Shown: positions 1 to 39,841 of the stretch, one piece after another | Layout: each line of letters opens with the position of its first letter | Position numbering within the stretch: position 1 is the stretch's first letter | Assembly (NCBI GenBank): GCA_024698685.1 | Contig: JAILQZ010000012.1 | Span: 1-61,456 of the forward strand | Direction of reading: 5' to 3' | Source of the DNA: a bacterium | GTDB taxonomy: Bacteria; Actinomycetota; Coriobacteriia; Coriobacteriales; CADBOM01 | Length of the DNA: 61,456 bases | Translations under genes and position numbers: made by a program | Notes under the pieces: generated by a model | Databases searched by the model: none | What the model saw: only the letters and a program-made list of their open reading frames with translations | Told to the model about the DNA's origin: nothing

Positions 1-2
1 AA

Positions 3-350
3 GCCCTTCCAATCATCGAGATCGTGCCGCACAGCGACTTCTACGATTTCGAGGCGAAGTACGCGGCGGGCGGCTCCGACCACATTTGCCCGGCGCGCAT
101 TCCCGACGATGTCGCGAAGAGATGCCAGGAGCAGGCGATCCTCGCCCATAAGGCGCTGGGCTGCAGGGGTCTTTCGAGGACCGACATGATCATCGACGCC
201 GACGGTATTCCCTGGACGCTCGAAACCAATACGATCCCGGGCATGACGGCGACCTCGCTCATCCCAGATGCCGCCAGAGCGGTCGGAATCAGCTTCGAGG
301 GTCTGTGTAGGCTTCTGATCGAATTGGCGCTTGAGAGCGCATCTGAGTAG
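3..350 (+). CDS. ddl: D-alanine--D-alanine ligase, C-terminal part (5' truncated by window)
   Basis: FYDFEAKY, GLSRTDM and LETNTIPGMTATSLIP motifs of the Ddl ATP-grasp C-terminus; TAG stop. Confidence 0.93.
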   Translation, partial: ALPIIEIVPHSDFYDFEAKYAAGGSDHICPARIPDDVAKRCQEQAILAHKALGCRGLSRTDMIIDADGIPWTLETNTIPGMTATSLIPDAARAVGISFEGLCRLLIELALESASE

Positions 351-402
351 CCCAGAGAGCCACTTCCAAAGCAGAAACAGCGCCGCAAAGCGCCAGTGTG
401 CG

Positions 403-1689
403 CTAGGCGATCGCCTGCAGCACAAGCAATGCCACAGTTAGCGCAATAATGACGACTATCGCGAGCTTGATCAAGAAGTTCGCGACCTTGCCATTGGCGT
501 AGTTGCCCATCAGACGCTTGTCCTTGAGCAGGATCAGGATGAAGATCAGCAGCACCGGCAGCAGCACGCCGTTGATGAACTGCGCGAGAAGCATGATGCC
601 CATCAGGTTCACGTTGGGGATCAGGACGATCAGGCACGAGAAGATCAGGATGGCGGTGAAGATGCTCTTGAACTGCGGCGCCTCGCTCCACTTGGTGCCG
701 ATGCCGCGCTCCCAACCGAACGCCTCGCAGACGACGTCGGATGTGGTAAGCGGGAGGATGCACGCGGCGAGCAGGGAAGCTGCGAGCAGGCCTGCCCCGA
801 AGAGGACGGTCGAGTATTTGCCGGCGATCGGCCCGAGAGCCATCGCAGCATCAGCCGCGTCGACGATTTCGGTGCCTTGCGGATGGAGCACAGCGCCGGT
901 GGTGAGGATGATGAACCACGCGACGACGCAACTCACGACAGCGCCGGTCACAACGTCGATCCTCTCGTAGAAGAGCTCCTTGACGCTCACGCCCTTGTCG
1001 ACGACGTTCGACTGCGTGAAGAAGATCATCCACGGCGCGATGGTGGTGCCGATGAGCGCGATGACCACCTCGAAGTAGTCGCTGGAGAGGGTGGCGTGCG
1101 GAACGACGGTGGAGGTGAGCGCCTCGCCCCAGTCGGGCCCCGCCAGGAAGCCCGCGAAGATGTATGTGATGAAGACGCATGAGATGACGAGGAAGACCTT
1201 CTCGACGCGCTGGTAGGAGCCCGCGTTGATCAGCAGCCACACGAAAAGCCCTGCTATCGGCACGGAAATGTACTTGCTGACCCCGAAGAGCTCCATAGCG
1301 GCAGCCACTCCGGCGAGCTCAGAGAACGTCGTCGCGGTGTTGGCGATGAGCAGCGCGAGCATGGCCAGCGCGGCAAGCCTGATGCCGAAGCGCTCGCGGA
1401 TGAGCGCCGAGAGCCCCTTGCCGGTCTTCGCGCCCATGCGCGCGGCGGCCTCTTGGACGATGATCAGGAAGATCATCATCACCGGGATGGTCCAAAGCGC
1501 CATGAAGCCGTAGTCCGCGCCGCAGATGGAGTACGTCGAGATGCCGCCCGCGTCGTTGCCGGCCATCGCGGCGACGACTCCCGGGCCCATGGCCGAGAGT
1601 ATGAGCATGAGCTTGCGGCGCTTCTTGGGCTCGGCGGGCTGGCCGGTGCCCTCCATGTGCGCCATCTGCTTCTTCTCGAGGTTCGCCAT
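403..1689 (-). CDS. NRAMP/SLC11-family divalent cation transporter, NRMT (Mg2+-transporting) type
   Basis: Multi-TM protein; TM1 GPG..AAMAGNDAGG (DAGG instead of DPGN) and TM6 GTTIAPW lacking the Met of Mn/Fe NRAMPs; GGAGG RBS. Confidence 0.88.
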   Translation of the reverse strand: MANLEKKQMAHMEGTGQPAEPKKRRKLMLILSAMGPGVVAAMAGNDAGGISTYSICGADYGFMALWTIPVMMIFLIIVQEAAARMGAKTGKGLSALIRERFGIRLAALAMLALLIANTATTFSELAGVAAAMELFGVSKYISVPIAGLFVWLLINAGSYQRVEKVFLVISCVFITYIFAGFLAGPDWGEALTSTVVPHATLSSDYFEVVIALIGTTIAPWMIFFTQSNVVDKGVSVKELFYERIDVVTGAVVSCVVAWFIILTTGAVLHPQGTEIVDAADAAMALGPIAGKYSTVLFGAGLLAASLLAACILPLTTSDVVCEAFGWERGIGTKWSEAPQFKSIFTAILIFSCLIVLIPNVNLMGIMLLAQFINGVLLPVLLIFILILLKDKRLMGNYANGKVANFLIKLAIVVIIALTVALLVLQAIA

Positions 1690-1707
1690 CCTGGTACCTC
1701 CGCAGGC

Positions 1708-3525
1708 TTACAGGCCCGACTGTCCTATCAGAACGGCCGCAGCGAGCTGAATGGCGATCGCTATGACCATGAGGATCAGCGATACGGGCAAGTCGCTGAG
1801 AATCTTGTCCTTGCGGTGCAGCACCAGCCCGATGGCGGAGAAGAGCGTTCCGAGCACGATGGTGACGAAGACGCAGATCATGAGCGGGAGAGCCAGGTTG
1901 GCGAAGGTTGCGATGCCAAGCGCGTATTCGGCGCTGAAGCGGTCGCCCGCGATGCCGAGGATCGCCGCTGCCAGAAGGCCGATTACGGCGGTCACAACCA
2001 GCGCGATGACGATGTTCCTGCCGAACAGCCGCCCGATCCCAGCGCTCTGGCCCTCGTCGATATCGATCAGCAGGTTGAGCGAGAGCGAGCCGACGACGTC
2101 GGCGATTATCAGCGAGATCGGCATGACGAGGATCTGCTCCGCGATGGAGTCGAACGCTCCCATGAGGAAGGCTCCGCCGGCGACAATCGCCCAGACGATG
2201 ACCCACATCATCCTGCGGAGGAACCAGGGAATCGCAGCGCGAAGGCCCTCGTTGGGCTGGGTCTTGCCCGCGCCCGCGAACATCAGGTCCTCATCGTACT
2301 CCTCCTCCATGACGTCGATCGCGTCGTCGATCGTGACGATGCCGAGCATCTTCCCGTCATCGACGACGGGAATCGCGAGGAGGTCATACTTCTGGATCAT
2401 CTCTGCGACTTCCTCCTGGTCGACCTCGGGGGATACGCTCACAATCTCGTTGGTGCTGATGTCACCGAGGGGCGTGTCCTGGTCGGCCAGCACGAGCTCG
2501 CGCAGAGAAACCGCGCCGCAGAGTCGCGAAAGCGAGTCTACCAGGTAGATGTAGTGCACCGACTCGTACTCCCTGCCGAGGTCGCGCACCTTGGCGATGG
2601 CCTCTTCGACGGTGGTGGCCTCGGAGGCGGTGATGAACTCAGTGGTCATGATTCCGCCGGCGCTCTTCTCCTTGTAGCCGAGAAGCGCGCGGATCCTGCG
2701 CTGGTCCTGCACTCCCATCAGCCACAGCAGGGCCTCCGCCTTCTCGTAGGGGAGGTCGCCGAGGATGTCTGCCGCGTCATCTGGATCCATCTGGGCGAGG
2801 AGCTCTGAAGCTCGATGCTCCGACATGTCCTCGATGAGGTCGCTCTGGAACTCGTCCTCGAGCTCTGCGACCGTGTCGGCTGCGTTCTGGCTGTCGAGGT
2901 GCTCGAAGACGCGCGCACGCTGCTGCGGGTCGAGCTGCTCGAGGATGTCCGCGATGTCGGCGGGGTGCAGCTCATGCAGGCGCTTGTGCGTCACCGAGAG
3001 CTTGACCTGCGAGAGGTCGCGGTCGACCAGGTCCATGTAGTTCCACGCGATGATCTGCTCCTTGAGCGGATGGCGGAAGAGCTTGGAGATGCCCACGACC
3101 GCCTTCTCGATGATCGGATGCAGGCCTCGCAGGATGCCCAGAACGCCGGTCTCGGCGCCTAGCAGTCTCAGGATGTTGCCGGACTGCGAGAGCTTGAGGT
3201 CGTTGACGCGAACGACCTTGAGCCCTTGCGTATCGACGATCTGCTTGTTGAGAAGGTCGCGCGCGAGCAACAGCTCGTCTGGCTGCAGATAGCTGAAGCG
3301 GATGTTGTGGCTCTCCAAGTTGAGCTTGATTCTCTCGCCGTCGAACTCATCGACGTACTTGCGCCAAGACACCATGAAAGGAGTCTTGGCAGGCCCAAGG
3401 AATGCCACTGATGTGATTCTCGGAAAAACCTCGCCGGTCGAGATGGCCAGATCGCTAACCTTGCCGATTTCCTCGCCGGTTGCATCCAGCACCGATATTC
3501 CCAGGAGTTGGGATAGATAAAGCAT
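1708..3525 (-). CDS. MgtE-like protein: PRC-barrel-like N-terminus, MgtE_N, CBS pair, divergent 5-TM C-terminus
   Basis: LHPADIADILEQL, MDPDDAADIL, SAGGIMTTEF, KYDLLAIPVVD..GIVTIDD motifs; GAGGAG RBS before ATG at 3525. Confidence 0.85.
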   Translation of the reverse strand: MLYLSQLLGISVLDATGEEIGKVSDLAISTGEVFPRITSVAFLGPAKTPFMVSWRKYVDEFDGERIKLNLESHNIRFSYLQPDELLLARDLLNKQIVDTQGLKVVRVNDLKLSQSGNILRLLGAETGVLGILRGLHPIIEKAVVGISKLFRHPLKEQIIAWNYMDLVDRDLSQVKLSVTHKRLHELHPADIADILEQLDPQQRARVFEHLDSQNAADTVAELEDEFQSDLIEDMSEHRASELLAQMDPDDAADILGDLPYEKAEALLWLMGVQDQRRIRALLGYKEKSAGGIMTTEFITASEATTVEEAIAKVRDLGREYESVHYIYLVDSLSRLCGAVSLRELVLADQDTPLGDISTNEIVSVSPEVDQEEVAEMIQKYDLLAIPVVDDGKMLGIVTIDDAIDVMEEEYDEDLMFAGAGKTQPNEGLRAAIPWFLRRMMWVIVWAIVAGGAFLMGAFDSIAEQILVMPISLIIADVVGSLSLNLLIDIDEGQSAGIGRLFGRNIVIALVVTAVIGLLAAAILGIAGDRFSAEYALGIATFANLALPLMICVFVTIVLGTLFSAIGLVLHRKDKILSDLPVSLILMVIAIAIQLAAAVLIGQSGL

Positions 3526-3552
3526 GATGAGTCTCCTCTTCAATTGCGTTCA

Positions 3553-3612
3553 CAGATGGCAGGGGAGCGATGAACCCGGCATCGCCGCCTCCGCTGATGC
3601 CCCAGCCACCTC
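3553..3612 (-). promoter_or_regulatory. Structured 5' UTR segment of the mgtE-like gene
   Basis: On the minus strand AGGUGGCUGGGG can pair with CCCCUGCCAUCU, enclosing GCAUC..GAUGC; starts at the leader ORF stop. Confidence 0.5.
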
Positions 3613-3659
3613 TAGAGGAGACCTAAGGGGCTAATGACTGTGACTGAAATCGTCCACAA
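3612..3659 (-). CDS. Putative 15-aa leader peptide MWTISVTVISPLGLL
   Basis: AGAAAGGG SD-like, then TTG TGG ACG ATT TCA GTC ACA GTC ATT AGC CCC TTA GGT CTC CTC TAG; an overlapping GTG frame gives MDDFSHSH (3657-3631). Confidence 0.5.
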   Translation of the reverse strand: MWTISVTVISPLGLL

Positions 3660-3766
3660 CAGCCCTTTCTTCTAGTAGCCCTTCTTGCTCGGCGCGCGCC
3701 CTTTGCGCCGCGCCTTCGAACCTATAGCGCGCCTAGGGCGCCGCAGCGCCCCAGCGCAAACCTCGC

Positions 3767-4030
3767 CTACTGGATGGTGTTGGCGAGCTTCATGATTCCA
3801 GACTTGCGGTTGGCAGCCTGGTTCTTGTGGATGACGCCCTTGGAGGCCGCCTTGTCGAGAAGCCTGCAAGCCTTGAGAGCAGCCTCGAGCGCAGTTTCTG
3901 CGTCCTCGGCAGCTACGGCGTCCTTGACCCTGCGGGTAGCGGTCTTGAGCTCCGACTTGATGGCCCTGTTGCGCATGCGTGCGATCTCGTTCGTGCGGTT
4001 GCGCTTCTTCTGACTCTTGATGTTTGCCAC
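3767..4030 (-). CDS. rpsT: 30S ribosomal protein S20
   Basis: [30 protein letters not shown]; GTG start. Confidence 0.98.
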
Positions 4031-4316
4031 GTCTTCGTTCCTTCCAAATGTGCTATATCGTTACAACACCTTCGTTGTAAAACTGCTATGCAGCAACGCG
4101 ATAGGCGCGCTGAATATCAAATTATGCACCAAGTCCCTTTCCATGATGGCGACGAAGCTGGTGTGAGTGGCAAAAACCCAAGGCAAGCGAACCTTTTTGA
4201 CGCGAAACCAGCCCAAAAAGGGGCATTTTTAGCGATTCTTGCGAGCTGATTGCGACAAACCGCCGAATATTTCAACCGCAAATAACGATTCAAGCGCCTC
4301 TCGTTGAATTCCCTCG

Positions 4317-4344
4317 TTGCCGAAAAAGCCAGATGCAGTAAAAT
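4317..4344 (+). promoter_or_regulatory. Sigma70-type promoter of rpsP operon
   Basis: TTGCCG-N16-TAAAAT. Confidence 0.55.
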
Positions 4345-4430
4345 CATCGTCTACGTGCTGGCAGTGCGGCGAAAAGAGAATCGAAGCCCAAGCCAGCCCA
4401 ATAAGCAAGAAGAAATTGAAGGAGATAGCT

Positions 4431-4757
4431 TTGGCAGTAAAGATTCGCCTTGCCCGTCATGGCGCAAAGAAGTATCCGTATTATCGCGTCGTCGTCATCG
4501 ACGGCCGCGCCCGTCGCGATGGCCGCGCCATCTGCGAGGTTGGCAGGTACAACCCCAACACCAACCCCAAGCTCGTCAAGCTCGACCTCGAGACCATCGA
4601 CGAGTGGATCGCCAAGGGTGCCCAGCCCACCGATGCAGTCGCTCGCCTCATCGAGATCGCCCGCGCCGGTGGCCCCACTCTCAAGTCCACCGAGGGCAAG
4701 CTCTCCAAGAAGGCAGCCAAGAAGGCCGCCGAGGCTGCAGCTGCAGATGCCGAGTAG
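4431..4757 (+). CDS. rpsP: 30S ribosomal protein S16
   Basis: [31 protein letters not shown]; TTG start after GAAGGAG; Lys/Ala-rich tail. Confidence 0.97.
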
Positions 4758-4809
4758 CCTGCGGGCCGCTTTCGCTTCCGCAGCAAGCCAGTAAGCAGAG
4801 GGATTTCAA

Positions 4810-5052
4810 ATGCCTAAGAACCCACAGCAAGCCTCTGGACTCGTCGAGATGCTGGTCCGCTCGCTCGTCGACGACCAGGACAGCGTCTCTGTCGTGACCA
4901 AGGAGGAGCATTCGGGCATCGTCATCGAGGTCACGGTGGCGCAGGAGGAGACCGGCAAGGTTATCGGCCGCCAGGGCCGCATCATCAAGGCCATCCGCAC
5001 GCTTGCGCGCGCAACCACAGACGATTCGGTCGAGGTCGAGGTTCTCGGATAA
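4810..5052 (+). CDS. khpA: KH-domain RNA-binding protein (KhpA/YlqC)
   Basis: GKVIGRQGRIIKAIRT motif; canonical position between rpsP and rimM. Confidence 0.92.
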   Translation: MPKNPQQASGLVEMLVRSLVDDQDSVSVVTKEEHSGIVIEVTVAQEETGKVIGRQGRIIKAIRTLARATTDDSVEVEVLG

Positions 5053-5060
5053 GGGAACCC

Positions 5061-5591
5061 GTGGCCAACAGCTATCGGAACATAGCCAAGGTAACCAAGA
5101 AGATCGGCAAAGCAGGGGAGGTCGCGATCGAACCGATCGGCGGCCTTCCTTTTCTGCTGCCCGAGGGCATGACGGTGCACCTCACCCCGCCAATCCTCGA
5201 CGGCATCAACCACTGCACGGTGGAGAGCGCTGAGCTCCGCGGCAACACCTGGGTCGTCAAGCTCTCGGGCTCCAACAGCGACACCGATGCCTTCTCGCTC
5301 GTCGGGCGCACCTGCCTCGTCCCATGCGATGAGCTCGGCGACTTCGAGGAGGAGGGCGACGAGGCGTACGACCTGATCGGCCTCTCCGTCATCGATAGTG
5401 CCGAGGGCTATCTCGGCGAAGTCGTCGAGGTGCTTCTCAGCTCCGAGCAGGCCACGCTCGTGGTGCAGCGCCCAGAGGGCGAGGGCGGCCGCGAACTGCT
5501 GATTCCCTTCGTCGATGAGTTCGTCAAGGGCATTGACGACGAGGCGATCGCGGTCGACCTGCCGCACGACCTGCTAACGCTCAACGGATAG
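5061..5591 (+). CDS. rimM: Ribosome maturation factor RimM
   Basis: DLIGLSV..G.V.EV, ELLIPFVDEFV motif; synteny. Confidence 0.9.
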   Translation: MANSYRNIAKVTKKIGKAGEVAIEPIGGLPFLLPEGMTVHLTPPILDGINHCTVESAELRGNTWVVKLSGSNSDTDAFSLVGRTCLVPCDELGDFEEEGDEAYDLIGLSVIDSAEGYLGEVVEVLLSSEQATLVVQRPEGEGGRELLIPFVDEFVKGIDDEAIAVDLPHDLLTLNG

Positions 5592-5668
5592 GGGAGGAAG
5601 GTTCCGGCACCCGTGTGAAGTCGAGGGAGGCTTGCCGCGAAGCGCTGCCCCGGAGGGAAGGAAGTATC

Positions 5669-6409
5669 ATGAGGATCGAGACGCTATCTGTTTTCCCACA
5701 CACGTTCGACTCCGTCATGCACGAGTCGATCATGAGACGCGCACAGGACAAGGACCTGCTCGAATTCGCCTCCCACGACCTGCGCGACTGGACCCACGAT
5801 GTCCATCGCACCACCGACGACGCGCCCTACGGCGGCGGACCCGGCCTGCTGATGAAGGTCGAGCCGATATTCGAGGCGCTCGACGAGCTGCTCGCCGAGG
5901 AGCCTGCGCTCGTCATCTTCACCACACCCACTGGCGAACCTTTCAACCAGTCGATAGCCGAGGAGCTCTCGCACGAGGAGCGCCTCCTCATCGTCTGCGG
6001 CCACTACGAGGGCTTCGATGAGCGCGCGCTGACGCTGGCTGATAGGTGCATCTCCGTCGGCGACTTCGTCCTCACGGGCGGCGAGCTTCCAGCGATGATC
6101 ATCGCCGACGCGGTCACGCGCCTGATTCCAGGCGTCCTCGGCGACGATATGTCGAGCCAGCTCGAGTCCTTCTCCGACGGGCTGCTCGAATACCCGCAAT
6201 ACACCAGGCCGGCATCCTACCGCGGCCTCGACGTGCCTGAGATCCTGCTTTCAGGCGATCATGCCAAGGTCGATGCTTGGAGGCGCCAAAAGGCCATCGA
6301 GAAGACCGCCGCGCTGCGCCCCGAGATGCTAGAGTACGCCAATCTCACCGACGAGGAGCGCGAGTACGCCAGGCGCCTTGTCGACGATCCCTTCGGCATG
6401 CTGGGCTAA
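5669..6409 (+). CDS. trmD: tRNA (guanine37-N1)-methyltransferase
   Basis: DDAPYGGGPG, CGHYEGFDER, SVGDFVLTGGE, LLEYPQYTRP. Confidence 0.98.
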   Translation: MRIETLSVFPHTFDSVMHESIMRRAQDKDLLEFASHDLRDWTHDVHRTTDDAPYGGGPGLLMKVEPIFEALDELLAEEPALVIFTTPTGEPFNQSIAEELSHEERLLIVCGHYEGFDERALTLADRCISVGDFVLTGGELPAMIIADAVTRLIPGVLGDDMSSQLESFSDGLLEYPQYTRPASYRGLDVPEILLSGDHAKVDAWRRQKAIEKTAALRPEMLEYANLTDEEREYARRLVDDPFGMLG

Positions 6410-21037: not shown

Positions 21038-23908
21038 CTAGACTACGACTGCGGGCTTGCCGCCACCCTCGACCGGGTTCTCGATGATGTCGTCGACCTC
21101 ATCCCAGAACTCCGAACCCATGTAGTAGGGATCGGGAGCGGGGACGGGCTCGCCGGCTGCGATGGCGTCGAGGCCGGCCTTGACCTTCTCCGGCTTGGCG
21201 GGGAGCTCGTAGATCCTGACGCCGCATGCATCGTCGATCGCGTTGAGGACGGCGACGTGGTCGGAGGACTGGAACATCTCGGAGCATCCGATTGAACCGT
21301 ACTCTGCGATCTCGCGATGATGGTCGAGGAACATGATCTCCATGTTGTCGGGGATGTCGGTGATCTCGGGAACTCCGCAGGCAAGCATGTTGCTATGCTT
21401 CTTGACATCGGAGTAGTCCTCGGTCAGCGCGAAGCCGATCGAGTGCGAGATTCCGCCGAAGCCCTGTCCGAGGACGGCATCGATGTTGCCGACCTTGCCG
21501 ATATCGACGGCAGCGGTGAATCCAACGACCTTGACCTTGCCCGTGGCCACCTCGACCTCGACCTCGGCCATGAAGAGCGCGTACATGTAGTGCGGCAGCG
21601 GGTTGCCCTGGCCGGTGTTGGGATCGAGCTCGCTGAGGCCCTCGATCGCGGAGTTGAGCCAGAAGCCCTCGTATGCGGTGTCGATGCCCTCGGCGACGCA
21701 CTCGTCATAGGTGCGATAGGTGCCGTCGTCCTTCTTGAGGGCCTTCATCATCGCGTTTGCCGCCTTGACGGAGGCATGCGAGTTCATGATGTGCGAACGC
21801 GAGCCTGCCGCGGGACCGGAGTCGGGGCAGAATTTGGAGTCGTTGGTGCGGATGACGACCTTGTCCGGGGTGATGCCCATGTCCTTGAGCGCCTCGGCCA
21901 CGACCATCTGGCTTCCTACCTGGCCGCCCTGGCCCATCTCCTCCCAGGTGTTGTAGACCTCGACCTTGCCATCGGGGCGCAGCTCGAGGCGGCATCCGGA
22001 ACCGTCGACCTGGCCGCCAGTGCAGGTGTAGCCGCCGAATGCGATGCCCACGCCGCGCTTCTTCTCAGGCGTGCTCTCGGCCTCGGCGCGAGCGCGCGCG
22101 GCCTCGTACTTCGGCTTCATGAGCTCGAGGAGCTCGGCATCGGTGATCTCGCGATACGGGCAGCCGGTGGTCTGGACATCGCCGAGGTGCGCGACGTTGA
22201 TCTCGCGGAACTCGAACGGGTCGATGCCGGCCTTGCGGGCGAGCATGTCGACGATCGACTCGCTGCCGGTGTAGGCCTGCGGGCAACCATAGCCGCGATA
22301 GGTGATGGTGTACGCGTGGTTGGTGGTTGCGCAGCGATTGAGGCCGGTGATCGTCGGGACCACATAGTGGAAGCCGTTGAAGATGGCCAGGCGCTGTAGG
22401 ATGCCGTTCGCGTAGGTGACGTAGGGGCCGGCGTCGATTCCGCAGTCATAGCGCAGACCGGTGATCTTTCCGTTCTCGTCGCAGCCGATAGCGTAGTTGC
22501 CGTTGTAGGGAGCGCGCTTGCCGCTGAAGTGTTGGAACTCCTCATAGCTCATCGACAGTGAGATCGGGCGACCGTCGAGGGCGATGGTCGCAACCGCCGC
22601 GAGGGCGAATCCGCAGGGGGACATGCCCCAGCCGAAGGTTCCGCCGACCGGGTTCTGAACGATGCGGACCTGATCGGGGGTCGCGCCGATGCCGGCGGAG
22701 ATCATTCCGCGGGTCTCGCCGATGCTCTGGCTCTTGCCGTGGATCGTGATCAGGCCATCGGGATCGATGTAGGCCTGCATGACGTCGCCTTCGATGGAGA
22801 GGTGCGGCTCACGCGTGGTGGAGAAGCTTCCCGATGCGGAGTAAGCGGAGCTCTCGATGATGTCATCGATGTTCTCGTAATCGCCCTTGAGAATCGGCTG
22901 GATGAGGAACTGGTTGGGGTCGTCGCCGAAGATCGGCATCGCGCCGGGGGCGACGGCCTCGACGTAGTTGTGGTACTCGGGGAGCTGCTCGAGCTCGACG
23001 GTGACCTTGGCGGCCGCTGCGCGAGCGTGCTCGTGGGTGTCGGCCGCGACCATCGCGACGACGTCGCCATAGCGATAGATGATGTCTCCAGCGAGGATGG
23101 GCTGCTTGATCGCGGTGTGCTTGTCGCGCGGATGGCCGACCGGAACGGTGAGGTCGTTGGTGCCCTTGATGTCATCGGCGGTGATTCCCTTGATGAAGCC
23201 GGGCATCTTCTCGGCCTCGGAGAAGTCGATCGAGAGGACCTTGGCGTGGAACGCCTTGCGAGGCTGGACGAGCGCGATGTAGATGGTCTCCTCGGGCATC
23301 TTCAGCGCGATGTCGTCGCCGTAGTCGCACAGGCCGGTGACCTTGGCCAGCGCATCGGGCCTCGGGATGGCGGAGCCGTAGAACTCGCCCTCGGGGGCCT
23401 TGTAGGTGATGTCGTCCATCGTCTTCTCGCCGCGCATGACCGCAGCCGCCTCCATGACGGCGTCGACGATCTGCTTGTAGCCAGTGCAGCGGCAGATGTT
23501 GCGGTGGGCCTTGAACCAGGCGCGCACCTCCTCACGCGTGGGCGAGGGGTTCTCCTGGAGCAGCTGATATGCCGAGACGATGAAGCCGGGGGTGCAGAAT
23601 CCGCACTGGACCGCGCCGCAGAAGATCCATGCCTGCTGCAGCGGATGCAGGTGCTGCGGGGTTCCGATTCCCTCGATCGTCGTGACCTCGCTGTACTCCG
23701 GGATAGCCTTGAGCTTGCGGGTGCAAGAGCGGACCACCTTGCCGTTGAGGATGACCGAGCAGGAGCCGCACACGCCGGTGCCGCAGCCTACCTTGACACC
23801 GGTCAACCCCAGGCGACGAAGCGCCGTGGAGAGGGTGTCCTTCTCGAGGTCGACGATCATCATGCGCTCGACGCCGTTGACCTTGAGCCAATACCTGTTG
23901 ATCTGCAT
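21038..23908 (-). CDS. Molybdopterin-dependent aldehyde oxidoreductase (Mop/xanthine oxidase family), paralog 1
   Basis: 2Fe-2S motifs GCGTGVCGSC..C and QCGFCTPG..CRCTGY; Mo domain GGTFG, YRGYG, AAGSR, GCSE; AAGGAGG RBS. Confidence 0.93.
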   Translation of the reverse strand: MQINRYWLKVNGVERMMIVDLEKDTLSTALRRLGLTGVKVGCGTGVCGSCSVILNGKVVRSCTRKLKAIPEYSEVTTIEGIGTPQHLHPLQQAWIFCGAVQCGFCTPGFIVSAYQLLQENPSPTREEVRAWFKAHRNICRCTGYKQIVDAVMEAAAVMRGEKTMDDITYKAPEGEFYGSAIPRPDALAKVTGLCDYGDDIALKMPEETIYIALVQPRKAFHAKVLSIDFSEAEKMPGFIKGITADDIKGTNDLTVPVGHPRDKHTAIKQPILAGDIIYRYGDVVAMVAADTHEHARAAAAKVTVELEQLPEYHNYVEAVAPGAMPIFGDDPNQFLIQPILKGDYENIDDIIESSAYSASGSFSTTREPHLSIEGDVMQAYIDPDGLITIHGKSQSIGETRGMISAGIGATPDQVRIVQNPVGGTFGWGMSPCGFALAAVATIALDGRPISLSMSYEEFQHFSGKRAPYNGNYAIGCDENGKITGLRYDCGIDAGPYVTYANGILQRLAIFNGFHYVVPTITGLNRCATTNHAYTITYRGYGCPQAYTGSESIVDMLARKAGIDPFEFREINVAHLGDVQTTGCPYREITDAELLELMKPKYEAARARAEAESTPEKKRGVGIAFGGYTCTGGQVDGSGCRLELRPDGKVEVYNTWEEMGQGGQVGSQMVVAEALKDMGITPDKVVIRTNDSKFCPDSGPAAGSRSHIMNSHASVKAANAMMKALKKDDGTYRTYDECVAEGIDTAYEGFWLNSAIEGLSELDPNTGQGNPLPHYMYALFMAEVEVEVATGKVKVVGFTAAVDIGKVGNIDAVLGQGFGGISHSIGFALTEDYSDVKKHSNMLACGVPEITDIPDNMEIMFLDHHREIAEYGSIGCSEMFQSSDHVAVLNAIDDACGVRIYELPAKPEKVKAGLDAIAAGEPVPAPDPYYMGSEFWDEVDDIIENPVEGGGKPAVVV

Positions 23909-24140
23909 AGAGTACCTCCTTCGTTCCCTTCCCAAACACCAGAGCCATTATCTTCGATACTGCGAAACGCGCTGCAAACTCTGCGATTCGCCAGAAACTA
24001 GACCAATCGGTGCATACATAATCCAATTCTATAACAGGTGAGGTTGCGTTTTGGTGCACATGAGCGCTTTTGCTTGGAAAAAATCATCCTATTTTGAGAT
24101 GCATTCGGAGGGGTTCGGCAGTTGCGGAAGCGCGGCCGAG

Positions 24141-32170: not shown

Positions 32171-32374
32171 CTATTTGTCTTCGAGTTGTACCTCGGTTTC
32201 CGCCATTTGTCCGATTACAAGCTCGTAGGGGATGAATACCTGGCCGCAATTCGGGCACGCGTCGACATCGTTGGAGAACGAGACGCCCATGTACTCGAAG
32301 TTGGAGGAGATCTTCTCGAGAGGCACGTTGCACTTGCAGCAGATCAGCTCTCGCTCAGGGATTGGGACACCCAT
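32171..32374 (-). CDS. Small CxxC..CPxC protein (DVU_1557-like, Mop-associated)
   Basis: MGVPIPERELICCKCNV..F.YMG..F..CPNCGQVFIP.EL..G.M.E.E..LEDK; AAGGAGG RBS. Confidence 0.8.
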   Translation of the reverse strand: MGVPIPERELICCKCNVPLEKISSNFEYMGVSFSNDVDACPNCGQVFIPYELVIGQMAETEVQLEDK

Positions 32375-34635
32375 TGCTTCCCCTCCTTGATATGCATGCG
32401 GTGGCAGTATGCGTCGAGAATCTCCCATGCGCTGCCTTGCGGCCTGTACTTGACCCAATAGGTCATGAACCCGATCTGCAGATGGCCGATGAAGCAATCC
32501 TCTTCGGGGTAGTAGAGCTTTTGGTTGTGAGCCTCGCAGTGCGCAAGCGTTTGCGCGATGTCGCTGATGTAGATCCAGCGGTCGCTGATGGTCTGGGCGA
32601 GCTCGTCGCCGATGATCAGCTCGAGATCGCCGGTTTGGGGCTTGGGCTCGGAGGCTTCGCGGCCCCAGACGTTCGCCTCGAGCTCGCGCTTGGTGGCGAA
32701 GCGGTTCTCCCTGCGCTGGGTTAGCAGGGGAGACGCTGCGGTGGAGGGGTTGAGGCCCAGCGCGATGTCGAGGATGTGCGCGCAGTCTCCGCAGCTCGCA
32801 TGCAGCGTGTTGCGGCAGTTCGTGCAGTAGGTGACGATCGTGCGGCCCTCGCCCATCCTCTCGACGGCGCGCTTCGCGACGCTGTTCGCCATCTTGTCGT
32901 TGGCGAGCCGGTATTGGCCGCCCCAGCCGCAGCAGGCGGCCTCTCCGAGCGCGTCGTTCTCGCACGCCACGCGCAGGCCAGCCTTCTCGACGAGCCTCCT
33001 TGCGCCCTCGCGCGATGCGCTGTCGAGCCTGGTGGAGCAGGGGTGGAAGAGGCTGACCTCCTCACTGGATGCGACGGTCTTGCCGAGGCCGGCTTCGATG
33101 GCTTCCGCGAACTCGGGCAGCTCGTAGAGAGAGACGACTTGCGCCTCGGGGATCGCCTCGGCCAGCTGGAAGATGCAGCTGGTGCATGCGCAGATCAGCT
33201 TTGGCCTGTCAAGCGACTCCCATTCCTCGCGCAGCCTGCGCTGATGAGCCGCCCTGCCCGCCACGTTGCCTGCCCAATACTCCGGTGCTCCGCAGCAGGT
33301 GAGCATCAGCGAGGTGCCCGGGAGCGCCTTGCGCAGCAGCTCGTAGGTCTTGGTGACGTAGCGTGGGTCGGAGGCGCCGAGCTGGCAGCCAGGGAAGAAC
33401 GCGAATTCGCCGGGCTCGCTGCCGGGGCTGTCGATGAGCTGCGCAGCCTGCGACGTGGCCTCGGCCATGTCGCGCAGCCAGAACTCGGAGTAGGCCACCG
33501 GCATCGTGCCCTCCTCGAACATCTGGGCGCGCGCATCCTCGAAGACGGCGCGCACGTCGACTCCGTAGGGGCAGATGTCCTTGCAGATGCCGCAGAAATC
33601 GCAGCTGGCTACCATGCGCGTTGCCAGGCGCGTGTTGGAGGCGGGGGCAACCGTGCTGCGCACCGTCTCGGCCATGCGGTCGGGGTACTTGCTGAACTCG
33701 GGGATCAGCGGGCATTGCTTCATGCAGATGTCGCAGTCGCAAAGGAGGCATCGCTGCGCCTCGGCGAGGGCCTCCTCCATCGTGTACGCATCGCCCGCAG
33801 GCTCGATGCGCGGAGTTTCGACGAGAAGCGCCGGGTCGGGCTTGTTCGACTTCTCGCGCGGGGGGAACGTCAGGTCGAGGGTGCTGCCGGTGTTGATGTA
33901 CATCTCCATCATGTTGGCGGCCTCGTTGCCGTGCCTGACCGCCTCGGCAGGCGTGGAGCCTATCAGCGAGCCGCCGAAGAAGACGTTTCCGTTGACCATG
34001 AGAGGGGAGCGCCTGATGGCGCGCTCGAGCAGACCGAAGTCCTCGCCGCCGGCGCCGGTGGCCACGTAGATCGTCTGCGCATCGATCTCGCGCAGCTCCT
34101 CGAGCGTGGTTATGGGCGTCGAGAGCCTGAGCTCATAGCTCCTATGCTTGAACTGGTGCTCGATTTCGGAAAGGTAGATCTCCTTGTCGAGCAGCTGGGC
34201 GAGCGATCCGCCGACTTCGTCGCGCGCCTCGTAGAGCGTCACGTTGTACTTGCGCTCGGCGAGCCTGATGGCGCACGCCAAGCCGCTCAGCCCCGCACCG
34301 ATGATGGCGATGCGATGCTCCTTGGCGGGGACGTTGAGCTTGATGGGGTCGGTGCGCTTGGCGCTGTCGATGATCGCGCGCTCGATGCCTCGAAGGTTGA
34401 GCGGCGCGTCGGTCGAGTTGCGCTCGCAGACGCGCTCGCACGGGGCATCGCAGATGTTGCAGATGATCTTGGGAAAGATGACCGCATCGCGCAGCAGGCG
34501 ATAGGCCGAGTCGATCTTGCCGCGCTTGAAGCGCGCTATCAGCGTCTTGATATCGAGGTTGAAGGGGCAGTGCGCGGAGCACGCCGGCGGCTGGCCATGC
34601 GTGCAGTCCGCAAGCATCTTGGCATAGTCCTTCAT
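32344..34635 (-). CDS. FAD/NAD-binding, 4Fe-4S dicluster and CCG-domain oxidoreductase (Mop-associated)
   Basis: GltD-like N-terminus, GAGLSG, two CxxCxxCxxxCP, FFPGCQL, TCCGAP, CCGWGG. Confidence 0.85.
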   Translation of the reverse strand: MKDYAKMLADCTHGQPPACSAHCPFNLDIKTLIARFKRGKIDSAYRLLRDAVIFPKIICNICDAPCERVCERNSTDAPLNLRGIERAIIDSAKRTDPIKLNVPAKEHRIAIIGAGLSGLACAIRLAERKYNVTLYEARDEVGGSLAQLLDKEIYLSEIEHQFKHRSYELRLSTPITTLEELREIDAQTIYVATGAGGEDFGLLERAIRRSPLMVNGNVFFGGSLIGSTPAEAVRHGNEAANMMEMYINTGSTLDLTFPPREKSNKPDPALLVETPRIEPAGDAYTMEEALAEAQRCLLCDCDICMKQCPLIPEFSKYPDRMAETVRSTVAPASNTRLATRMVASCDFCGICKDICPYGVDVRAVFEDARAQMFEEGTMPVAYSEFWLRDMAEATSQAAQLIDSPGSEPGEFAFFPGCQLGASDPRYVTKTYELLRKALPGTSLMLTCCGAPEYWAGNVAGRAAHQRRLREEWESLDRPKLICACTSCIFQLAEAIPEAQVVSLYELPEFAEAIEAGLGKTVASSEEVSLFHPCSTRLDSASREGARRLVEKAGLRVACENDALGEAACCGWGGQYRLANDKMANSVAKRAVERMGEGRTIVTYCTNCRNTLHASCGDCAHILDIALGLNPSTAASPLLTQRRENRFATKRELEANVWGREASEPKPQTGDLELIIGDELAQTISDRWIYISDIAQTLAHCEAHNQKLYYPEEDCFIGHLQIGFMTYWVKYRPQGSAWEILDAYCHRMHIKEGKQWVSQSLSES

Positions 34636-34687
34636 GCGCACCCTCGCTGTTCGCCGGCATTTCCTTCGACTTTCGATTATACAGCCG

Positions 34688-34722
34688 AAAAAGAGCTCCC
34701 CGGCCTACGCCTTGGGGAGCTC
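34688..34722 (-). terminator. Intrinsic terminator after Mop-2
   Basis: GAGCTCCCC..GGGGAGCTC TTTTT on minus strand, followed by TATAAT (34676-34681) for the next gene. Confidence 0.7.
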
Positions 34723-34749
34723 CTCTCGCTTGGGGCATGTGCGGCAACG

Positions 34750-37626: not shown

Positions 37627-37831
37627 GTTTCTTCTCCCAAAAAAGTGACGCTATGAGCAAAAAAGCTGCTCGGTAGAAATTCACTCTAGCACAGCGCACA
37701 ATGGCGACCGCCAAGGATACGGCGAACTGCACGTCCGCACGTTTCCCTTTTTGGCGAATCCGAGCCATGAAGATGGTTTATAGTTTCAGCAGAGGAAAGC
37801 AAGCGCATAGAAAGCGGGAAGGAAGCCAGCT

Positions 37832-39841
37832 ATGAGCATCGAGAAGTACCCCCATCTTCTGTCGCCCCTGAAGGTGGGCAACGTGATATTCCGCAACCGC
37901 ATCTTCGCGGCCCCCAATGGCTGCCAATACCTCGACTACGGCAACCTGCCATCCGCAGCGGGTGCGGCCTTCTACGAGCGCAAGGCCATGGGTGGAGCGG
38001 CTGCAGTTGCGCTGGGAGAGTGCATCGTCGACTCCGCCACCGGTCAGGCCCACGCCTACCAGATCCTGCTCGACAACCCGCAGGCGTTGCCTCCGCTGGC
38101 CTCCGCGGCCACTGCGATCAACCGCCACGGCGCGATCTCCTGCATCCAGCTGCAGCATTGCGGAATGTTCTCGCATCTGGTCTACGAACGCGGCGGCCAG
38201 CTGCTGGGCCCAGTGGACATGGCGGTGCCGGACATGCACCATACCAACAACGACGGCCACGAGGTGGCCCGCGTATCCGTCGATGGCATGCGCCATGTGC
38301 GCGGGATGACGGAGGAGGAGATCGAGAAGCTCATCCGCGATTTCGGCAAGGCTGCGAAGCTGGTGAAGCAGGCGGGCTTCGGCATGGTGATGCTCCACGC
38401 CGGGCACGGCTGGGGCCTGGCGCAGTTCATCTCGCCCAACGTGAACACCCGCAACGACCGTTGGGGCGGCCCTGCTCTGGAGAACCGCATGCGGCTGCCG
38501 CTGGCGGTGATCGAGAGCGTGCGCAAGGCCGTCGGCCCAGGAGTCCCGATCGAGGTGCGCATCAGCGGCGCGGAGCGCATCGACACCGGCTACGACATCG
38601 ACGAGGGCATCGCCATCGCCAAGGCGCTCGACGGCAAGGCTGATATCATCCATGTCTCCGCTGGGCATCACGAGTCGCCCTACGCCACCACGATCACCCA
38701 TCCCGGCATGTTCCAGGAGGACGGCTGCAATGTGAAGTACGCGGCCGAGATCAAGAAGCACGTGCAGGCTCCCGTGGCCACTGTGGGCGCACTGACCGAC
38801 CCCGCCTTCTTGGAGGAGATCATCGCCTCTGGCAAGGCCGACATCGTGAGTCTGGGGCGTCAGATGCTGGCCGACCCCGACCTGCCCCTCAAGGCGCGCA
38901 TCGGCCGCGAAGACGACATCGATCGCTGCATGCGTTGCTGCGCCTGCTTCTCCAATAGCACGCGAACCCGCAGGCGAGCCTGCGCGATCAATCCCGAGAT
39001 CGGCCGCGAGCTGGAGGAGAGGTACGCCAAGCCGGCCGCCAACCTCAAGCGTGTGCTGGTGGTTGGAGGTGGAGTGGCCGGCATGGAGGCCGCTCTCACT
39101 GCAGCCAAGCGCGGCCACGAGGTCATCCTCTGCGAGGCCACCGGCCGTCTGGGCGGGGTTCTCAACTGCGAGGAGGCCGTGCCCTTCAAGGCGAGGCTGG
39201 CAGAGTACCTGCAGAGGCAGGCCCGTAGGGTGCAGGAGGCAGGCGTCGATGTGTGCCTGAACGCCCCGGTCACCCCTGGGTTGGCCAAAGAGCTTCAACC
39301 CGACGTCATCATCGCCGCTCTTGGAGCGCGCCCGGTCAAGCCCCCCATCCCGGGCATCGACGGCTCGAACGTCTTCGGCGCGGAGCACATCTACACCCGC
39401 CCGGAGGAGGCTGGCCAGCGCGTGGTTATACTCGGTGGCGGACTCGTCGGCATCGAGCTGGGCCTCTTTCTGGCCGACCTCGGTCGAAAGATCACGCTGG
39501 TGGAGATGCTGCCCGACTTCAATGACGGCGGCAACATGGTCCACATGAACAGCCTGCGCCTGCAGATCCCTGCGAAGGACCTCGACGTCCATCTCTCCAC
39601 GCGCGCGAAGGAGATCCGCCTCGATGGAGTGCTGGCAGAGTGCTCGGGAGAGGATGTTTTCTTCCCAGCGGACACCGTGGTCTACGCCGTGGGCCAGCGA
39701 CCCTTGAGCGAGGAGGCCCTGGCCCTCAACGACTGCGCCCCCGAGTTCTATGCGGTGGGCGATTGCCTTGGCGCTAGGAACATCCTCGCAGCCACCTCCG
39801 CGGCATACCAGGCAGCCTTGGATGCGGGGAGGCTCGCGTAG
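37832..39841 (+). CDS. NADH:flavin oxidoreductase (OYE barrel + 4Fe-4S + FAD; BaiCD/FadH-like)
   Basis: RNRI, QL.H.G, HAGHGW..QFISP..N.R.D.WGG..ENR, CMRCCAC..CAINP, GGGVAGMEAA. Confidence 0.92.
   Translation: MSIEKYPHLLSPLKVGNVIFRNRIFAAPNGCQYLDYGNLPSAAGAAFYERKAMGGAAAVALGECIVDSATGQAHAYQILLDNPQALPPLASAATAINRHGAISCIQLQHCGMFSHLVYERGGQLLGPVDMAVPDMHHTNNDGHEVARVSVDGMRHVRGMTEEEIEKLIRDFGKAAKLVKQAGFGMVMLHAGHGWGLAQFISPNVNTRNDRWGGPALENRMRLPLAVIESVRKAVGPGVPIEVRISGAERIDTGYDIDEGIAIAKALDGKADIIHVSAGHHESPYATTITHPGMFQEDGCNVKYAAEIKKHVQAPVATVGALTDPAFLEEIIASGKADIVSLGRQMLADPDLPLKARIGREDDIDRCMRCCACFSNSTRTRRRACAINPEIGRELEERYAKPAANLKRVLVVGGGVAGMEAALTAAKRGHEVILCEATGRLGGVLNCEEAVPFKARLAEYLQRQARRVQEAGVDVCLNAPVTPGLAKELQPDVIIAALGARPVKPPIPGIDGSNVFGAEHIYTRPEEAGQRVVILGGGLVGIELGLFLADLGRKITLVEMLPDFNDGGNMVHMNSLRLQIPAKDLDVHLSTRAKEIRLDGVLAECSGEDVFFPADTVVYAVGQRPLSEEALALNDCAPEFYAVGDCLGARNILAATSAAYQAALDAGRLA

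What the first reader, a model, noticed from the sequence alone, without database searches (positions are those of the whole stretch)
403..3525. MgtE sensor with a degenerate pore paired with an NRMT-type NRAMP: possible split sensor/transporter
Seen: the MgtE_N and CBS Mg2+-sensing domains are well conserved. The membrane part lacks the TM2 GGNxGxQ motif (reads ADVVGSLSL) and the TM5 DPA..P..T..D motif with the ion-binding Asp (reads DKILSDLPVSLILMVIA). A PRC-barrel-like extension is added at the N-terminus. An NRAMP with DAGG/GTTIAPW starts 18 bp downstream. Known: the TM5 Asp is essential for MgtE conduction, and DAGG-type NRAMPs (NRMT) carry Mg2+. Inference: the MgtE-like protein is a membrane-tethered regulator that gates the NRMT rather than a channel.
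Basis: partly seen in the sequence, partly recalled or inferred. Interest (0 to 1): 0.72.

Follow-up and report, generated by a model that had tools for sequence, protein, structure and literature searches.

The report
Pore-less MgtE partner of NRMT transporter
A two-gene operon pairs a magnesium-carrying NRAMP-type transporter with an MgtE look-alike that keeps the magnesium-sensing parts but has lost the channel's pore residues, so it is most likely a magnesium sensor for the transporter; the pairing itself was already reported in 2014.

Summary
On the minus strand, 1708..3525 encodes a 605-aa protein with a PRC-barrel module, MgtE_N, a CBS pair and five C-terminal helices. After 18 bp, 403..1689 encodes a close homologue of the solved Mg2+ transporter EleNRMT. 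The membrane part aligns helix for helix with Thermus MgtE. It lacks the TM2 GGNxGxQ motif, has Met586 where the essential pore Asp432 sits, and matches no Pfam MgtE model. All eight mapped cytosolic Mg2+ ligands of MgtE are kept. In 76 of 77 assessable related loci an NRMT gene follows directly. In 14 of them (12 labelled Eggerthellaceae) the partner ends after one membrane helix, so a pore is not needed for the shared role. The "regulator, not channel" reading is therefore partly supported. Binding and gating were not tested, because the complex prediction never ran. The membrane domain is not decaying (dN/dS 0.03) and carries an acidic stripe on TM2, so some ion-binding role remains possible. 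The pairing and the feedback-regulator idea were published by Shin et al. 2014. New here are the full-length, pore-altered, PRC-bearing form and the natural truncation series.

The parts
1708..3525 (-). MgtE-like gene (605 aa, P0001): PRC module, MgtE_N, CBS pair and a five-helix membrane domain without the canonical pore motifs
   Evidence: ORF and translation. Pfam and NCBIfam. Profile alignment to Thermus MgtE. All relatives start M-x-Y-L-S, which supports the ATG at 3525 over the TTG at 3543.
3533..3537 (-). AGGAG ribosome-binding site, 7 nt before the ATG of the MgtE-like gene
   Evidence: Read directly from the sequence.
3016..3525 (-). N-terminal PRC-barrel module (residues 1-170), one of the two best conserved parts of the protein
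   Evidence: Pfam PRC 2-33, plus a weak second PRC-like stretch at 86-140 (E 0.018). Mean pairwise identity 0.73. AF2 model of residues 1-178 has pLDDT 82.6; its best PDB matches are the PRC-barrel proteins CdpB1/CdpB2 (8qzo, E about 2e-4, 135-141 columns), then reaction-centre H subunits and RimM.
2668..2970 (-). MgtE_N domain (residues 186-286) with D217, D249 and D253 at the positions of Thermus E59, D91 and D95
   Evidence: Ligand roles from PMC5882242 passages.
2281..2667 (-). CBS pair and start of the plug helix (residues 287-415) with D381, D401, D404, E412 and D413 at the positions of Thermus D226, D247, D250, E258 and D259
1717..2244 (-). Five-helix membrane domain (residues 428-603). 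TM2 keeps P469, L472 and A475 and has D476. TM5 has M586 in place of the pore Asp.
   Evidence: AF2 helices 428-454, 458-488, 497-527, 534-571 and 578-603 with pLDDT about 90. Profile alignment. Column counts. No PF01769 match. Only 9 hits among 1.84 billion representatives.
1690..1707 (-). 18-nt spacer with GGAGG before the NRMT start codon
403..1689 (-). NRMT-type NRAMP (428 aa, P0002) with binding-site residues D46, G49, T215 and Q370
   Evidence: Pfam Nramp E 1.9e-84. 7qia EleNRMT E 2.7e-169, numbering offset 9. EleNRMT site residues D55, G58, T224, Q379 from PMC8806188 passages. Conserved across 121 aligned sequences.
378..395 (-). Terminator-like hairpin followed by a T-run, just after the NRMT stop codon
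   Evidence: Consensus scan. It was the only site found in 1..4300; shuffles give a mean of 2.6, so only its position speaks for it.

Best explanation
The two genes form one operon. The downstream gene is an NRMT, a Mg2+ (and Mn2+) uniporter of the NRAMP fold. The upstream gene descends from a full-length MgtE channel. It keeps the cytosolic Mg2+-sensing machinery (N domain, CBS pair, acidic plug helix) and the five-helix membrane fold, but has lost the canonical selectivity filter and carries an N-terminal PRC-barrel module.

It most likely no longer conducts Mg2+ itself. I propose that it sits in the membrane as a Mg2+ sensor that acts on the NRMT. When cytosolic Mg2+ rises, the acidic sites fill and the cytosolic domains close, as in MgtE. 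This state is then passed to the transporter, probably through the PRC module or the cytosolic face, to limit uptake.

Shown: the anatomy, the loss of the filter, the conservation of the ligands, the synteny and the natural truncations. Inferred: binding to NRMT, the direction of the effect (inhibition at high Mg2+), and the role of the PRC module.
For: 1. Filter lost. D432 aligns to M586 (109 of 116), and GGNxGxQ aligns to ADVVGSL. D432A/N are inactive in Thermus MgtE (PMC4241985 passages). There is no PF01769 match even at E<=10, and TIGR00400 scores below its cut-off.
2. Sensor kept. Counts are over 116 full-length relatives; ligand roles are from PMC5882242 passages. D91->D249, D95->D253, D247->D401, E258->E412 and D259->D413 are each 116 of 116. 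D250->D404 is D or E in 115. E59->D217 is E or D in 111. D226->D381 is D in 81.
3. Conservation is uneven. Mean pairwise identity is 0.73 (PRC), 0.76 (MgtE_N), 0.62 (CBS) and 0.31 (membrane domain).
4. Synteny. An NRMT gene lies directly downstream on the same strand in 76 of 80 related loci. Three of the other four are cut by a contig end, so 76 of 77 are assessable. By a heuristic start call, the gap is -1 to +22 nt in 61 of the 76.
5. Natural experiment. 14 loci, 12 of them labelled Eggerthellaceae (Eggerthella sinensis, Slackia piriformis, Gordonibacter, Raoultibacter and others), encode a 445-453-aa form with PRC, MgtE_N and CBS. It ends after one hydrophobic helix and is still followed by NRMT. 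These form two well-supported clades among long forms.
6. Link to Mg2+. An M-box riboswitch (127.9 bits) lies about 280 nt upstream of the long-form gene in L003.
7. EleNRMT is an uncoupled Mg2+ transporter (PMC8806188 passages). I infer that an uncoupled uniporter makes feedback control useful.
8. Shin et al. 2014 found the same kind of neighbour next to most NrmT genes. The A. capsulatum partner alone did not rescue a Mg2+-transport-deficient B. subtilis (PMC4072509 passages).
Against: - No evidence of contact between the two proteins was obtained.
- In Shin et al. 2014, co-expressing the A. capsulatum partner with its transporter did not change rescue.
- EleNRMT transports on its own in proteoliposomes.
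- The membrane domain is under purifying selection as strong as that on the PRC module. In 56 Collinsella-type genes dN/dS is 0.034 against 0.035 (1368 of 1540 pairs used; pairs are not independent). It therefore does more than a loose anchor would.
- TM2 keeps P469 and L472, whose Thermus equivalents line the M1 site.
- In most long forms TM2 carries acidic or polar residues at 476 (79% acidic), 477 (64%), 480, 484, 485 (72%) and 488 (84%). This could be an ion site or part of a pathway. Collinsella lacks the acids at 476/477.
- One locus (L075) has no NRMT within the 1859 nt that follow the gene.
- The sample is narrow. All 80 loci carry Coriobacteriia-like copies of the pair, and about 60 are Collinsella-type.
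Confidence: 0.55

Rival explanations
1. The long form is still an ion channel or transporter with a rewired pore. The acid has moved from TM5 to TM2 (D476 and the 476-488 stripe), and the protein works beside or in series with the NRMT, perhaps for another cation.
For: - Five helices with pLDDT about 90, and full-length MgtE chains as best fold matches (435-445 aligned columns, E about 1e-20).
- P469 and L472 are kept, and the TM2 stripe is acidic or polar in most of 116 relatives.
- dN/dS is 0.034 in the membrane domain.
Against: - The outer-leaflet halves of TM1, TM2 and TM5 are apolar, and Met replaces D432.
- Collinsella lacks the TM2 acids at 476/477.
- 14 loci have lost TM2-TM5 altogether yet keep the pairing.
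- The membrane part alone finds only 9 relatives in 1.84 billion representatives, and its mean identity is 0.31. This fits poorly with a conserved filter.
Confidence: 0.15
2. The protein is tied to NRMT but does not gate it. It may act as a metal chaperone or buffer, an assembly or stability factor, or a sensor for Mn2+ or nucleotides rather than Mg2+.
For: - Shin et al. 2014 named chaperone activity as an alternative, and found that the A. capsulatum transporter mainly carries Mn2+.
- CBS pairs often bind nucleotides; MgtE with ATP is among the matches (5x9h).
- PRC barrels are protein-binding modules; CdpB1/B2 and the reaction-centre H subunit are among the fold matches.
Against: - The exact acidic ligands of the MgtE gating sites are invariant. 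That is more than a buffer or chaperone would need.
- An M-box riboswitch upstream in L003 points to Mg2+.
Confidence: 0.2
3. The adjacency has no functional meaning. The MgtE-like protein regulates something else, and the operon structure is inherited by descent within one class.
For: - All 80 loci carry Coriobacteriia-like copies of the pair and many are close relatives, so the count overstates independent events.
- L075 lacks the neighbour.
Against: - Shin et al. 2014 saw the same pairing in other phyla, namely Clostridium and Acidobacterium.
- The pairing survives loss of four helices.
- Gaps are very short.
Confidence: 0.05

Closest known systems
NrmT-associated 'MgtE-like fragment' (Shin et al. 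2014, PLoS Genet, PMC4072509; e.g. A. capsulatum Acp2976)
   Same: A gene homologous to the MgtE cytoplasmic domain lies immediately upstream of an NRMT-type NRAMP. Some copies are under an M-box riboswitch, seen here in L003. The authors proposed it as a cytoplasmic feedback regulator.
   Different: [quoted passage not shown] Here the protein is 605 aa, with a complete five-helix MgtE-type membrane domain that has lost the filter. The window has no M-box. The PRC module is not mentioned in the passages I read.
MgtE Mg2+ channel (Thermus thermophilus, PDB 2yvx/2zy9/5x9h)
   Same: N domain, CBS pair, plug helix and five membrane helices align end to end. All eight mapped cytosolic Mg2+ ligands are kept. 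P321 and L324 of TM2 are kept.
   Different: There is no Asp at the D432 position and no GGNxGxQ. There is no PF01769 match, and the NCBIfam score is below its cut-off. A 170-residue PRC module is added at the N-terminus. The protein is always paired with an NRMT.
EleNRMT (Eggerthella lenta NRMT, PDB 7qia; Ramanadane et al. 2022, PMC8806188)
   Same: P0002 matches it at E 2.7e-169 over residues 19-427 and has the same site residues (D, G, T, Q).
   Different: EleNRMT was studied alone. The passages found for 'MgtE', 'operon', 'neighbor', 'adjacent' and 'genomic context' mention no partner. In the four Eggerthella-labelled loci fetched here the partner is the short one-helix form. The E. lenta locus itself was not among the 80 fetched.
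PRC-barrel proteins (CdpB1/CdpB2 of A. fulgidus 8qzo; reaction-centre H subunit; RimM)
   Same: The model of residues 1-178 matches them by fold (E about 2e-4 for 8qzo, 2e-3 and weaker for H subunits).
   Different: Sequence identity is 10-25%. Only the best of five models is confident: pLDDT is 82.6, and the other four range from 74.8 to 47.0. No functional link is shown.

Membership tests
MgtE Mg2+ channel (TIGR00400 / Pfam MgtE_N + CBS + PF01769) | MgtE_N domain and CBS pair | tested here: met
   PF03448 E 4e-30 and PF00571 E 4.7e-19. Thermus MgtE E 1.4e-43.
MgtE Mg2+ channel (TIGR00400 / Pfam MgtE_N + CBS + PF01769) | Membrane domain recognised as PF01769, and whole protein above the NCBIfam equivalog cut-off | tested here: not met
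   No PF01769 match, nor for residues 425-605 alone at E<=10. TIGR00400 scores 228.6 against a cut-off of 232.75.
MgtE Mg2+ channel (TIGR00400 / Pfam MgtE_N + CBS + PF01769) | Five membrane helices with the MgtE arrangement | tested here: met
   The profile aligns through chain positions 48-468 of 2yvx. AF2 predicts five helices. Foldseek aligns 435-445 columns to full-length MgtE chains. The global rmsd of about 18 A reflects domain placement in a monomer model.
MgtE Mg2+ channel (TIGR00400 / Pfam MgtE_N + CBS + PF01769) | Pore Asp of TM5 (Thermus D432), required for conduction | tested here: not met
   M586 (or V587 in the alternative register). Met in 109 of 116 relatives and no acidic residue at 583-592. 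The requirement is from PMC4241985 passages.
MgtE Mg2+ channel (TIGR00400 / Pfam MgtE_N + CBS + PF01769) | TM2 Gly-rich GGNxGxQ motif | tested here: not met
It reads A475-D476-V477-V478-G479-S480-L481. The Thermus chain shows it.
MgtE Mg2+ channel (TIGR00400 / Pfam MgtE_N + CBS + PF01769) | Mg2+ conduction | not testable with these tools
   Needs flux or complementation assays.
NrmT-associated MgtE-like accessory protein (Shin et al. 2014) | [quoted passage not shown] | tested here: met
   76 of 77 assessable relatives.
NrmT-associated MgtE-like accessory protein (Shin et al. 2014) | Small protein limited to the cytoplasmic domain | tested here: not met
   605 aa with five membrane helices. 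Short one-helix forms exist in 14 loci, 12 of them labelled Eggerthellaceae. Soluble forms of about 420 aa elsewhere are Atlas leads only.
NrmT-associated MgtE-like accessory protein (Shin et al. 2014) | M-box riboswitch upstream (in many members, not all) | tested here: not met
   No Rfam match in window 1..6000 at E<=1. Present in 1 of 23 related loci scanned, L003.
NRMT (NRAMP-related Mg2+ transporter), for the downstream gene | NRAMP fold with the NRMT binding-site signature (Asp, Gly in place of Asn, Thr in place of Ala/Met region, Gln) | tested here: met
   PF01566 E 1.9e-84. D46, G49, T215 and Q370 correspond to EleNRMT D55, G58, T224 and Q379. Conserved in alignment A3.
NRMT (NRAMP-related Mg2+ transporter), for the downstream gene | Mg2+ transport | not testable with these tools
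   Inferred from the close match to EleNRMT.

The most novel reading that the evidence does not exclude
The Coriobacteriia long form is a preserved intermediate in the conversion of an ion channel into a regulatory subunit of an unrelated transporter. In this reading a full-length MgtE lost its selectivity filter, kept its Mg2+ gating machinery and membrane fold, and now gates a LeuT-fold uniporter in trans. The series would run from the five-helix form, through the one-helix form (mainly Eggerthellaceae), to the soluble PRC-MgtE_N-CBS proteins of other phyla and the split genes of C. acetobutylicum, recording the stepwise loss of the channel body. The conserved acidic stripe on TM2 would then be an intramembrane Mg2+ sensing site, like Mg1 of MgtE, rather than a pore.
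Probability: 0.35. Interest if true: 0.7.

Novelty: new variant of a known kind. Interest (0 to 1): 0.5.

Why it matters
NRMTs are a fourth route of bacterial Mg2+ uptake, and EleNRMT is their structural model. EleNRMT is an uncoupled uniporter, so how cells stop it from overloading them with Mg2+ is an open question. The partner gene has been left uncharacterised since 2014.

This locus shows that in Coriobacteriia the partner is a whole MgtE-type membrane protein without the filter. In the Eggerthella-labelled loci fetched here, the partner is a one-helix membrane protein. That gives concrete constructs for a direct test of trans-gating. It may also be an example of a channel turned into a sensor subunit.

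If the partner proves irrelevant to transport, the finding reduces to a divergent MgtE paralogue.

Tried and rejected
- Complex prediction (NRMT full length plus partner residues 1-460, with alignments A3 and A2) never ran. The queue was reported full. The job was not sent on. The tool gave no usable answer. Contact between the two proteins therefore stayed unchecked.
- No M-box or other Rfam family in window 1..6000.
- The 'shorter' protein search returned mainly contig-end fragments. It does not show genuine split forms.
- Searching the membrane part alone against 1.84 billion representatives gave 9 hits and no canonical MgtE. Homology of that part to MgtE therefore rests on the profile alignment and the fold.
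- I considered the TTG at 3543 as the start and rejected it, because all relatives begin at the ATG position.
- I considered that the membrane domain is a decaying remnant and rejected it on dN/dS 0.034.
- I considered that the TM2 acids replace D432 in the whole family. This is not general, because Collinsella lacks them.
- No canonical MgtE or CorA gene was found among 36 other ORFs of the window scanned with Pfam.
As a result the reverse question (how many NRMT genes lack the partner), the pairing in other phyla, and the E. lenta locus itself were not checked.
- Figure S5 of Shin et al. 2014 (JPG) could not be seen. It may already show Coriobacteriia loci.
Full report
**What is there.** Two ORFs lie head to tail on the minus strand.
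- The first runs 1708..3525 (ATG, 605 aa, P0001). An AGGAG sits 7 nt before its start.
- The second runs 403..1689 (428 aa, P0002).
- An 18-nt spacer containing GGAGG separates them.
- A terminator-like hairpin with a T-run lies at 395..378 on the same strand, just after the second stop codon. It is the only such site in 1..4300, so only its position speaks for it.
- Upstream, across about 240 nt, is an rpsT-like ORF (3767..4030; named from its translation and my own knowledge).
- No Rfam family, and so no M-box, matches in 1..6000 at E<=1.

**The downstream gene is an NRMT.**
- Pfam Nramp matches at E 1.9e-84.
- The best solved relative is EleNRMT of Eggerthella lenta (7qia), at E 2.7e-169 over residues 19-427.
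- With the numbering offset of 9 seen in that alignment, P0002 D46, G49, T215 and Q370 are EleNRMT D55, G58, T224 and Q379. The eLife paper mutated these four binding-site residues (PMC8806188, passages).
- D46, G49 and Q370 are invariant and T215 nearly so in 121 aligned sequences.
- The same paper concludes that EleNRMT is an uncoupled Mg2+ transporter and that it works alone in proteoliposomes.

**The upstream gene is an MgtE relative without the canonical pore.**
- Pfam finds PRC (2-33), MgtE_N (186-286) and two CBS domains, but not the MgtE membrane family PF01769.
- Residues 425-605 alone give no PF01769 match even at E<=10.
- NCBIfam mgtE aligns over residues 172-576 but scores 228.6 bits, under its cut-off of 232.75.
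- A single-sequence search aligns Thermus MgtE only up to residue 470.
- A 26-sequence family profile aligns it through all five helices: profile 183-599 against chain positions 48-468 of 2yvx, E 7.9e-67.
- Chain numbers are native numbers plus 23. This is checked by P321, L324 and D432 falling on Pro, Leu and Asp.
- In that alignment P321 and L324 fall on P469 and L472. The segment G327-Q333 falls on A475-D476-V477-V478-G479-S480-L481. D432 falls on M586, or on V587 if the TM5 register is shifted by one so that D573 and P580 match D418 and P425.
- Asp432 is described as the sole widely conserved acidic pore residue, and D432A and D432N are inactive (PMC4241985, passages).
- An AlphaFold2 model has mean pLDDT 73. 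It predicts helices at 428-454, 458-488, 497-527, 534-571 and 578-603 with pLDDT near 90.
- Its best PDB matches are full-length MgtE chains, with 435-445 aligned columns and E about 1e-20. The global rmsd is large because the domains of a monomer model are placed differently.

**The sensor part is intact.** The NMR study of Thermus MgtE assigns E258 to Mg2, D259 to Mg3, D91/D247 to Mg4, D226/D250 to Mg5, D95 to Mg6 and E59 to Mg7 (PMC5882242, passages). The table gives the equivalent positions in 116 full-length relatives, out of the 120 in alignment A2.

| Thermus ligand | P0001 position | Count in 116 relatives |
|---|---|---|
| D91 | D249 | D in 116 |
| D95 | D253 | D in 116 |
| D247 | D401 | D in 116 |
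| E258 | E412 | E in 116 |
| D259 | D413 | D in 116 |
| D250 | D404 | D or E in 115 |
| E59 | D217 | E or D in 111 |
| D226 | D381 | D in 81 |

**Family and conservation.**
- The 120 best relatives are almost all about 600-670 aa; a few partial entries are shorter. Where sources name them, they come from Coriobacteriia. None carries PF01769 in its precomputed domains.
- Mean pairwise identity is 0.73 in the PRC module, 0.76 in MgtE_N, 0.62 in the CBS pair and 0.31 in the membrane domain.
- The membrane part alone finds only 9 proteins at E<=0.001 among 1.84 billion representatives, none a canonical MgtE.
- Yet it is not decaying. Among 56 Collinsella-type genes dN/dS is 0.034 for the membrane domain, 0.035 for the PRC module and 0.011 for MgtE_N plus CBS. 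This used 1368 of 1540 pairs with overall dS between 0.15 and 1.5, and the pairs are not independent.
- The best kept membrane positions are W434, R437, W441 and W445 in TM1, P469, L472 and A475 in TM2, and M586 in TM5.
- The inner half of TM2 carries a stripe of acidic or polar residues: 476 (79% acidic), 477 (64%), 480, 484, 485 (72%) and 488 (84%). The outer-leaflet halves are apolar.
- Collinsella has Ser-Arg at 476-477, so the stripe is not universal.

**Co-occurrence.**
- One scan of species-representative genomes with the family alignment matched at least 593 relatives and kept the best 80 loci. All but L005 are labelled Coriobacteriia or carry no class label, and about 60 are Collinsella-type. 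L005 is labelled Acidaminococcaceae, but its copy is Coriobacteriia-like.
- tblastn finds an NRMT directly downstream on the same strand in 76 of them.
- In L046 and L073 the locus ends inside the gene. In L076 it ends 102 nt after the gene.
- L075 has 1859 nt after the gene and no NRMT. So 76 of 77 assessable loci have the pair.
- With a heuristic start call, the gap is -1 to +22 nt in 61 of 76. It is -55 in 14, probably miscalled, and 216 in one.
- An M-box riboswitch (RF00380, 127.9 bits) lies at 5548-5718 of L003, before its long-form gene at 6001. The other 22 loci scanned have none.

**A natural truncation series.**
- In 14 loci (L004-L016 and L074) the partner is 445-453 aa. Twelve are labelled Eggerthellaceae, including Eggerthella sinensis, Slackia piriformis, Gordonibacter and Raoultibacter; L004 and L005 are not.
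- The three short forms scanned (L004, L008, L015) have PRC, MgtE_N and CBS.
- It ends after one hydrophobic helix, and the NRMT gene follows at once, leaving no room for TM2-TM5.
- These short forms keep the D249, D253, D401 and D404 positions but vary at E412/D413. In MgtE, E258 and D259 (the E412/D413 equivalents) form sites Mg2 and Mg3; from my own recollection, not from a call, these sites bridge the plug helix to the membrane domain.
- In a tree of the first 420 residues (35 rows) they form two fully supported clades among long forms. Two changes are needed, and one is not excluded. The root is at the midpoint only, so the order of events is not settled.
- Protein-atlas look-alikes of residues 1-420 are clusters of 413-425 aa with PRC, MgtE_N and CBS, found in Chloroflexota, Cryosericota, Acidobacteriota, Actinomycetota and Bacillota (scores 0.92-0.94). 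These are leads without alignments.
- They fit the 'small' partner that Shin et al. described next to most NrmT genes. They also suggest that the PRC module belongs to the whole accessory family rather than being special to this gene.

**The PRC module.**
- Modelled alone with 22 sequences, residues 1-178 reach pLDDT 82.6 and pTM 0.76 in the best model. The other four models range from 74.8 to 47.0.
- The best PDB matches are the PRC-barrel proteins CdpB1/CdpB2 of A. fulgidus (E about 2e-4, 135-141 columns). Reaction-centre H subunits, RimM and small PRC proteins follow.
- A second, weak PRC-like match covers 86-140 (E 0.018).
- That such barrels bind partner proteins, and that in reaction centres they cap the cytoplasmic face of membrane subunits, is established knowledge and not a result obtained here. 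It makes this module a candidate docking surface, by inference only.

**What is known already.**
- Shin et al. 2014 (PMC4072509; passages read, figures not seen) found that most NrmT genes have an adjacent gene homologous to the MgtE cytoplasmic domain. They speculated that it gives cytoplasmic feedback regulation or acts as a chaperone.
- They showed that the A. capsulatum partner alone does not rescue a Mg2+-transport-deficient B. subtilis, and that co-expression did not improve rescue.
- The EleNRMT paper does not mention a partner in the passages found for 'MgtE', 'operon', 'neighbor', 'adjacent' and 'genomic context'.
- Searches for 'PRC-barrel' with 'MgtE' gave 0 papers.
- Searches for 'MgtE-like' with 'Nramp' gave 10 papers, of which only Shin et al. 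is relevant by title and abstract.
- Searches for 'NrmT' with 'magnesium' from 2015 on matched 11 papers, of which 8 were listed. I searched one of them for the partner and it does not mention it.

**Verdict.** It remains untested on its central point, contact with and gating of the NRMT. The selection on the membrane domain and the TM2 acidic stripe also qualify it. The idea is not new. The full-length, filter-less, membrane-embedded form and the truncation series are.

Noticed in passing
window 32776..37551 (+): A 1591-aa open frame with no Pfam match. It is antisense to two real minus-strand genes: a Fer4/CCG flavoprotein at 32344..34641 and a xanthine-dehydrogenase-family molybdoenzyme at 34750..37626. 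It is an unusually long spurious ORF in GC-rich DNA.
   Followed up: yes
window 37778..39898 (-): A 706-aa open frame without Pfam matches. It is antisense to an Oxidored_FMN plus Pyr_redox_2 enzyme at 37832..39841 (+).
   Followed up: yes
L003 5548-5718: An M-box Mg2+ riboswitch (RF00380, 127.9 bits) lies about 280 nt upstream of a long-form MgtE-like gene in a Coriobacteriia MAG. It is the only one among 23 related loci scanned.
   Followed up: partly
L015 5754-5827; L009 5750-5823; L008 5740-5813; L013 5626-5699; L016 235-308; L005 5745-5836: A tRNA gene lies roughly 170-370 nt upstream of the short-form partner gene in several short-form loci, five of the six labelled Eggerthellaceae.
   Followed up: no
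L005 (CAVAWX010000018.1): The record is labelled Acidaminococcaceae (Bacillota), yet it carries a Coriobacteriia-like short-form partner and NRMT. In the tree it groups with L004 (uncultured Coriobacteriia) at 100/100. This suggests mis-binning or transfer.
   Followed up: no
L075 2733-4655: The one assessable relative (641 aa, 45% identity, long branch) without an NRMT gene downstream. The next ORF, 4609-5262, was not identified.
   Followed up: partly
L077 7845-8858: The NRMT match stops at residue 348 well inside the locus, unlike its Collinsella neighbours. The gene may be disrupted, or there may be an assembly problem.
   Followed up: no
proteins P0332 (189 aa, PRC) and P0348 (262 aa, MgtE_N + CBS): Both are listed with a longest contig of 26075 bases. 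They may be the two halves of a split partner gene on one contig.
   Followed up: no
window 21038..23935 (-) and 34750..37626 (-): Two paralogous xanthine-dehydrogenase-family molybdoenzymes with fused 2Fe-2S domains lie in one 61-kb window.
   Followed up: no
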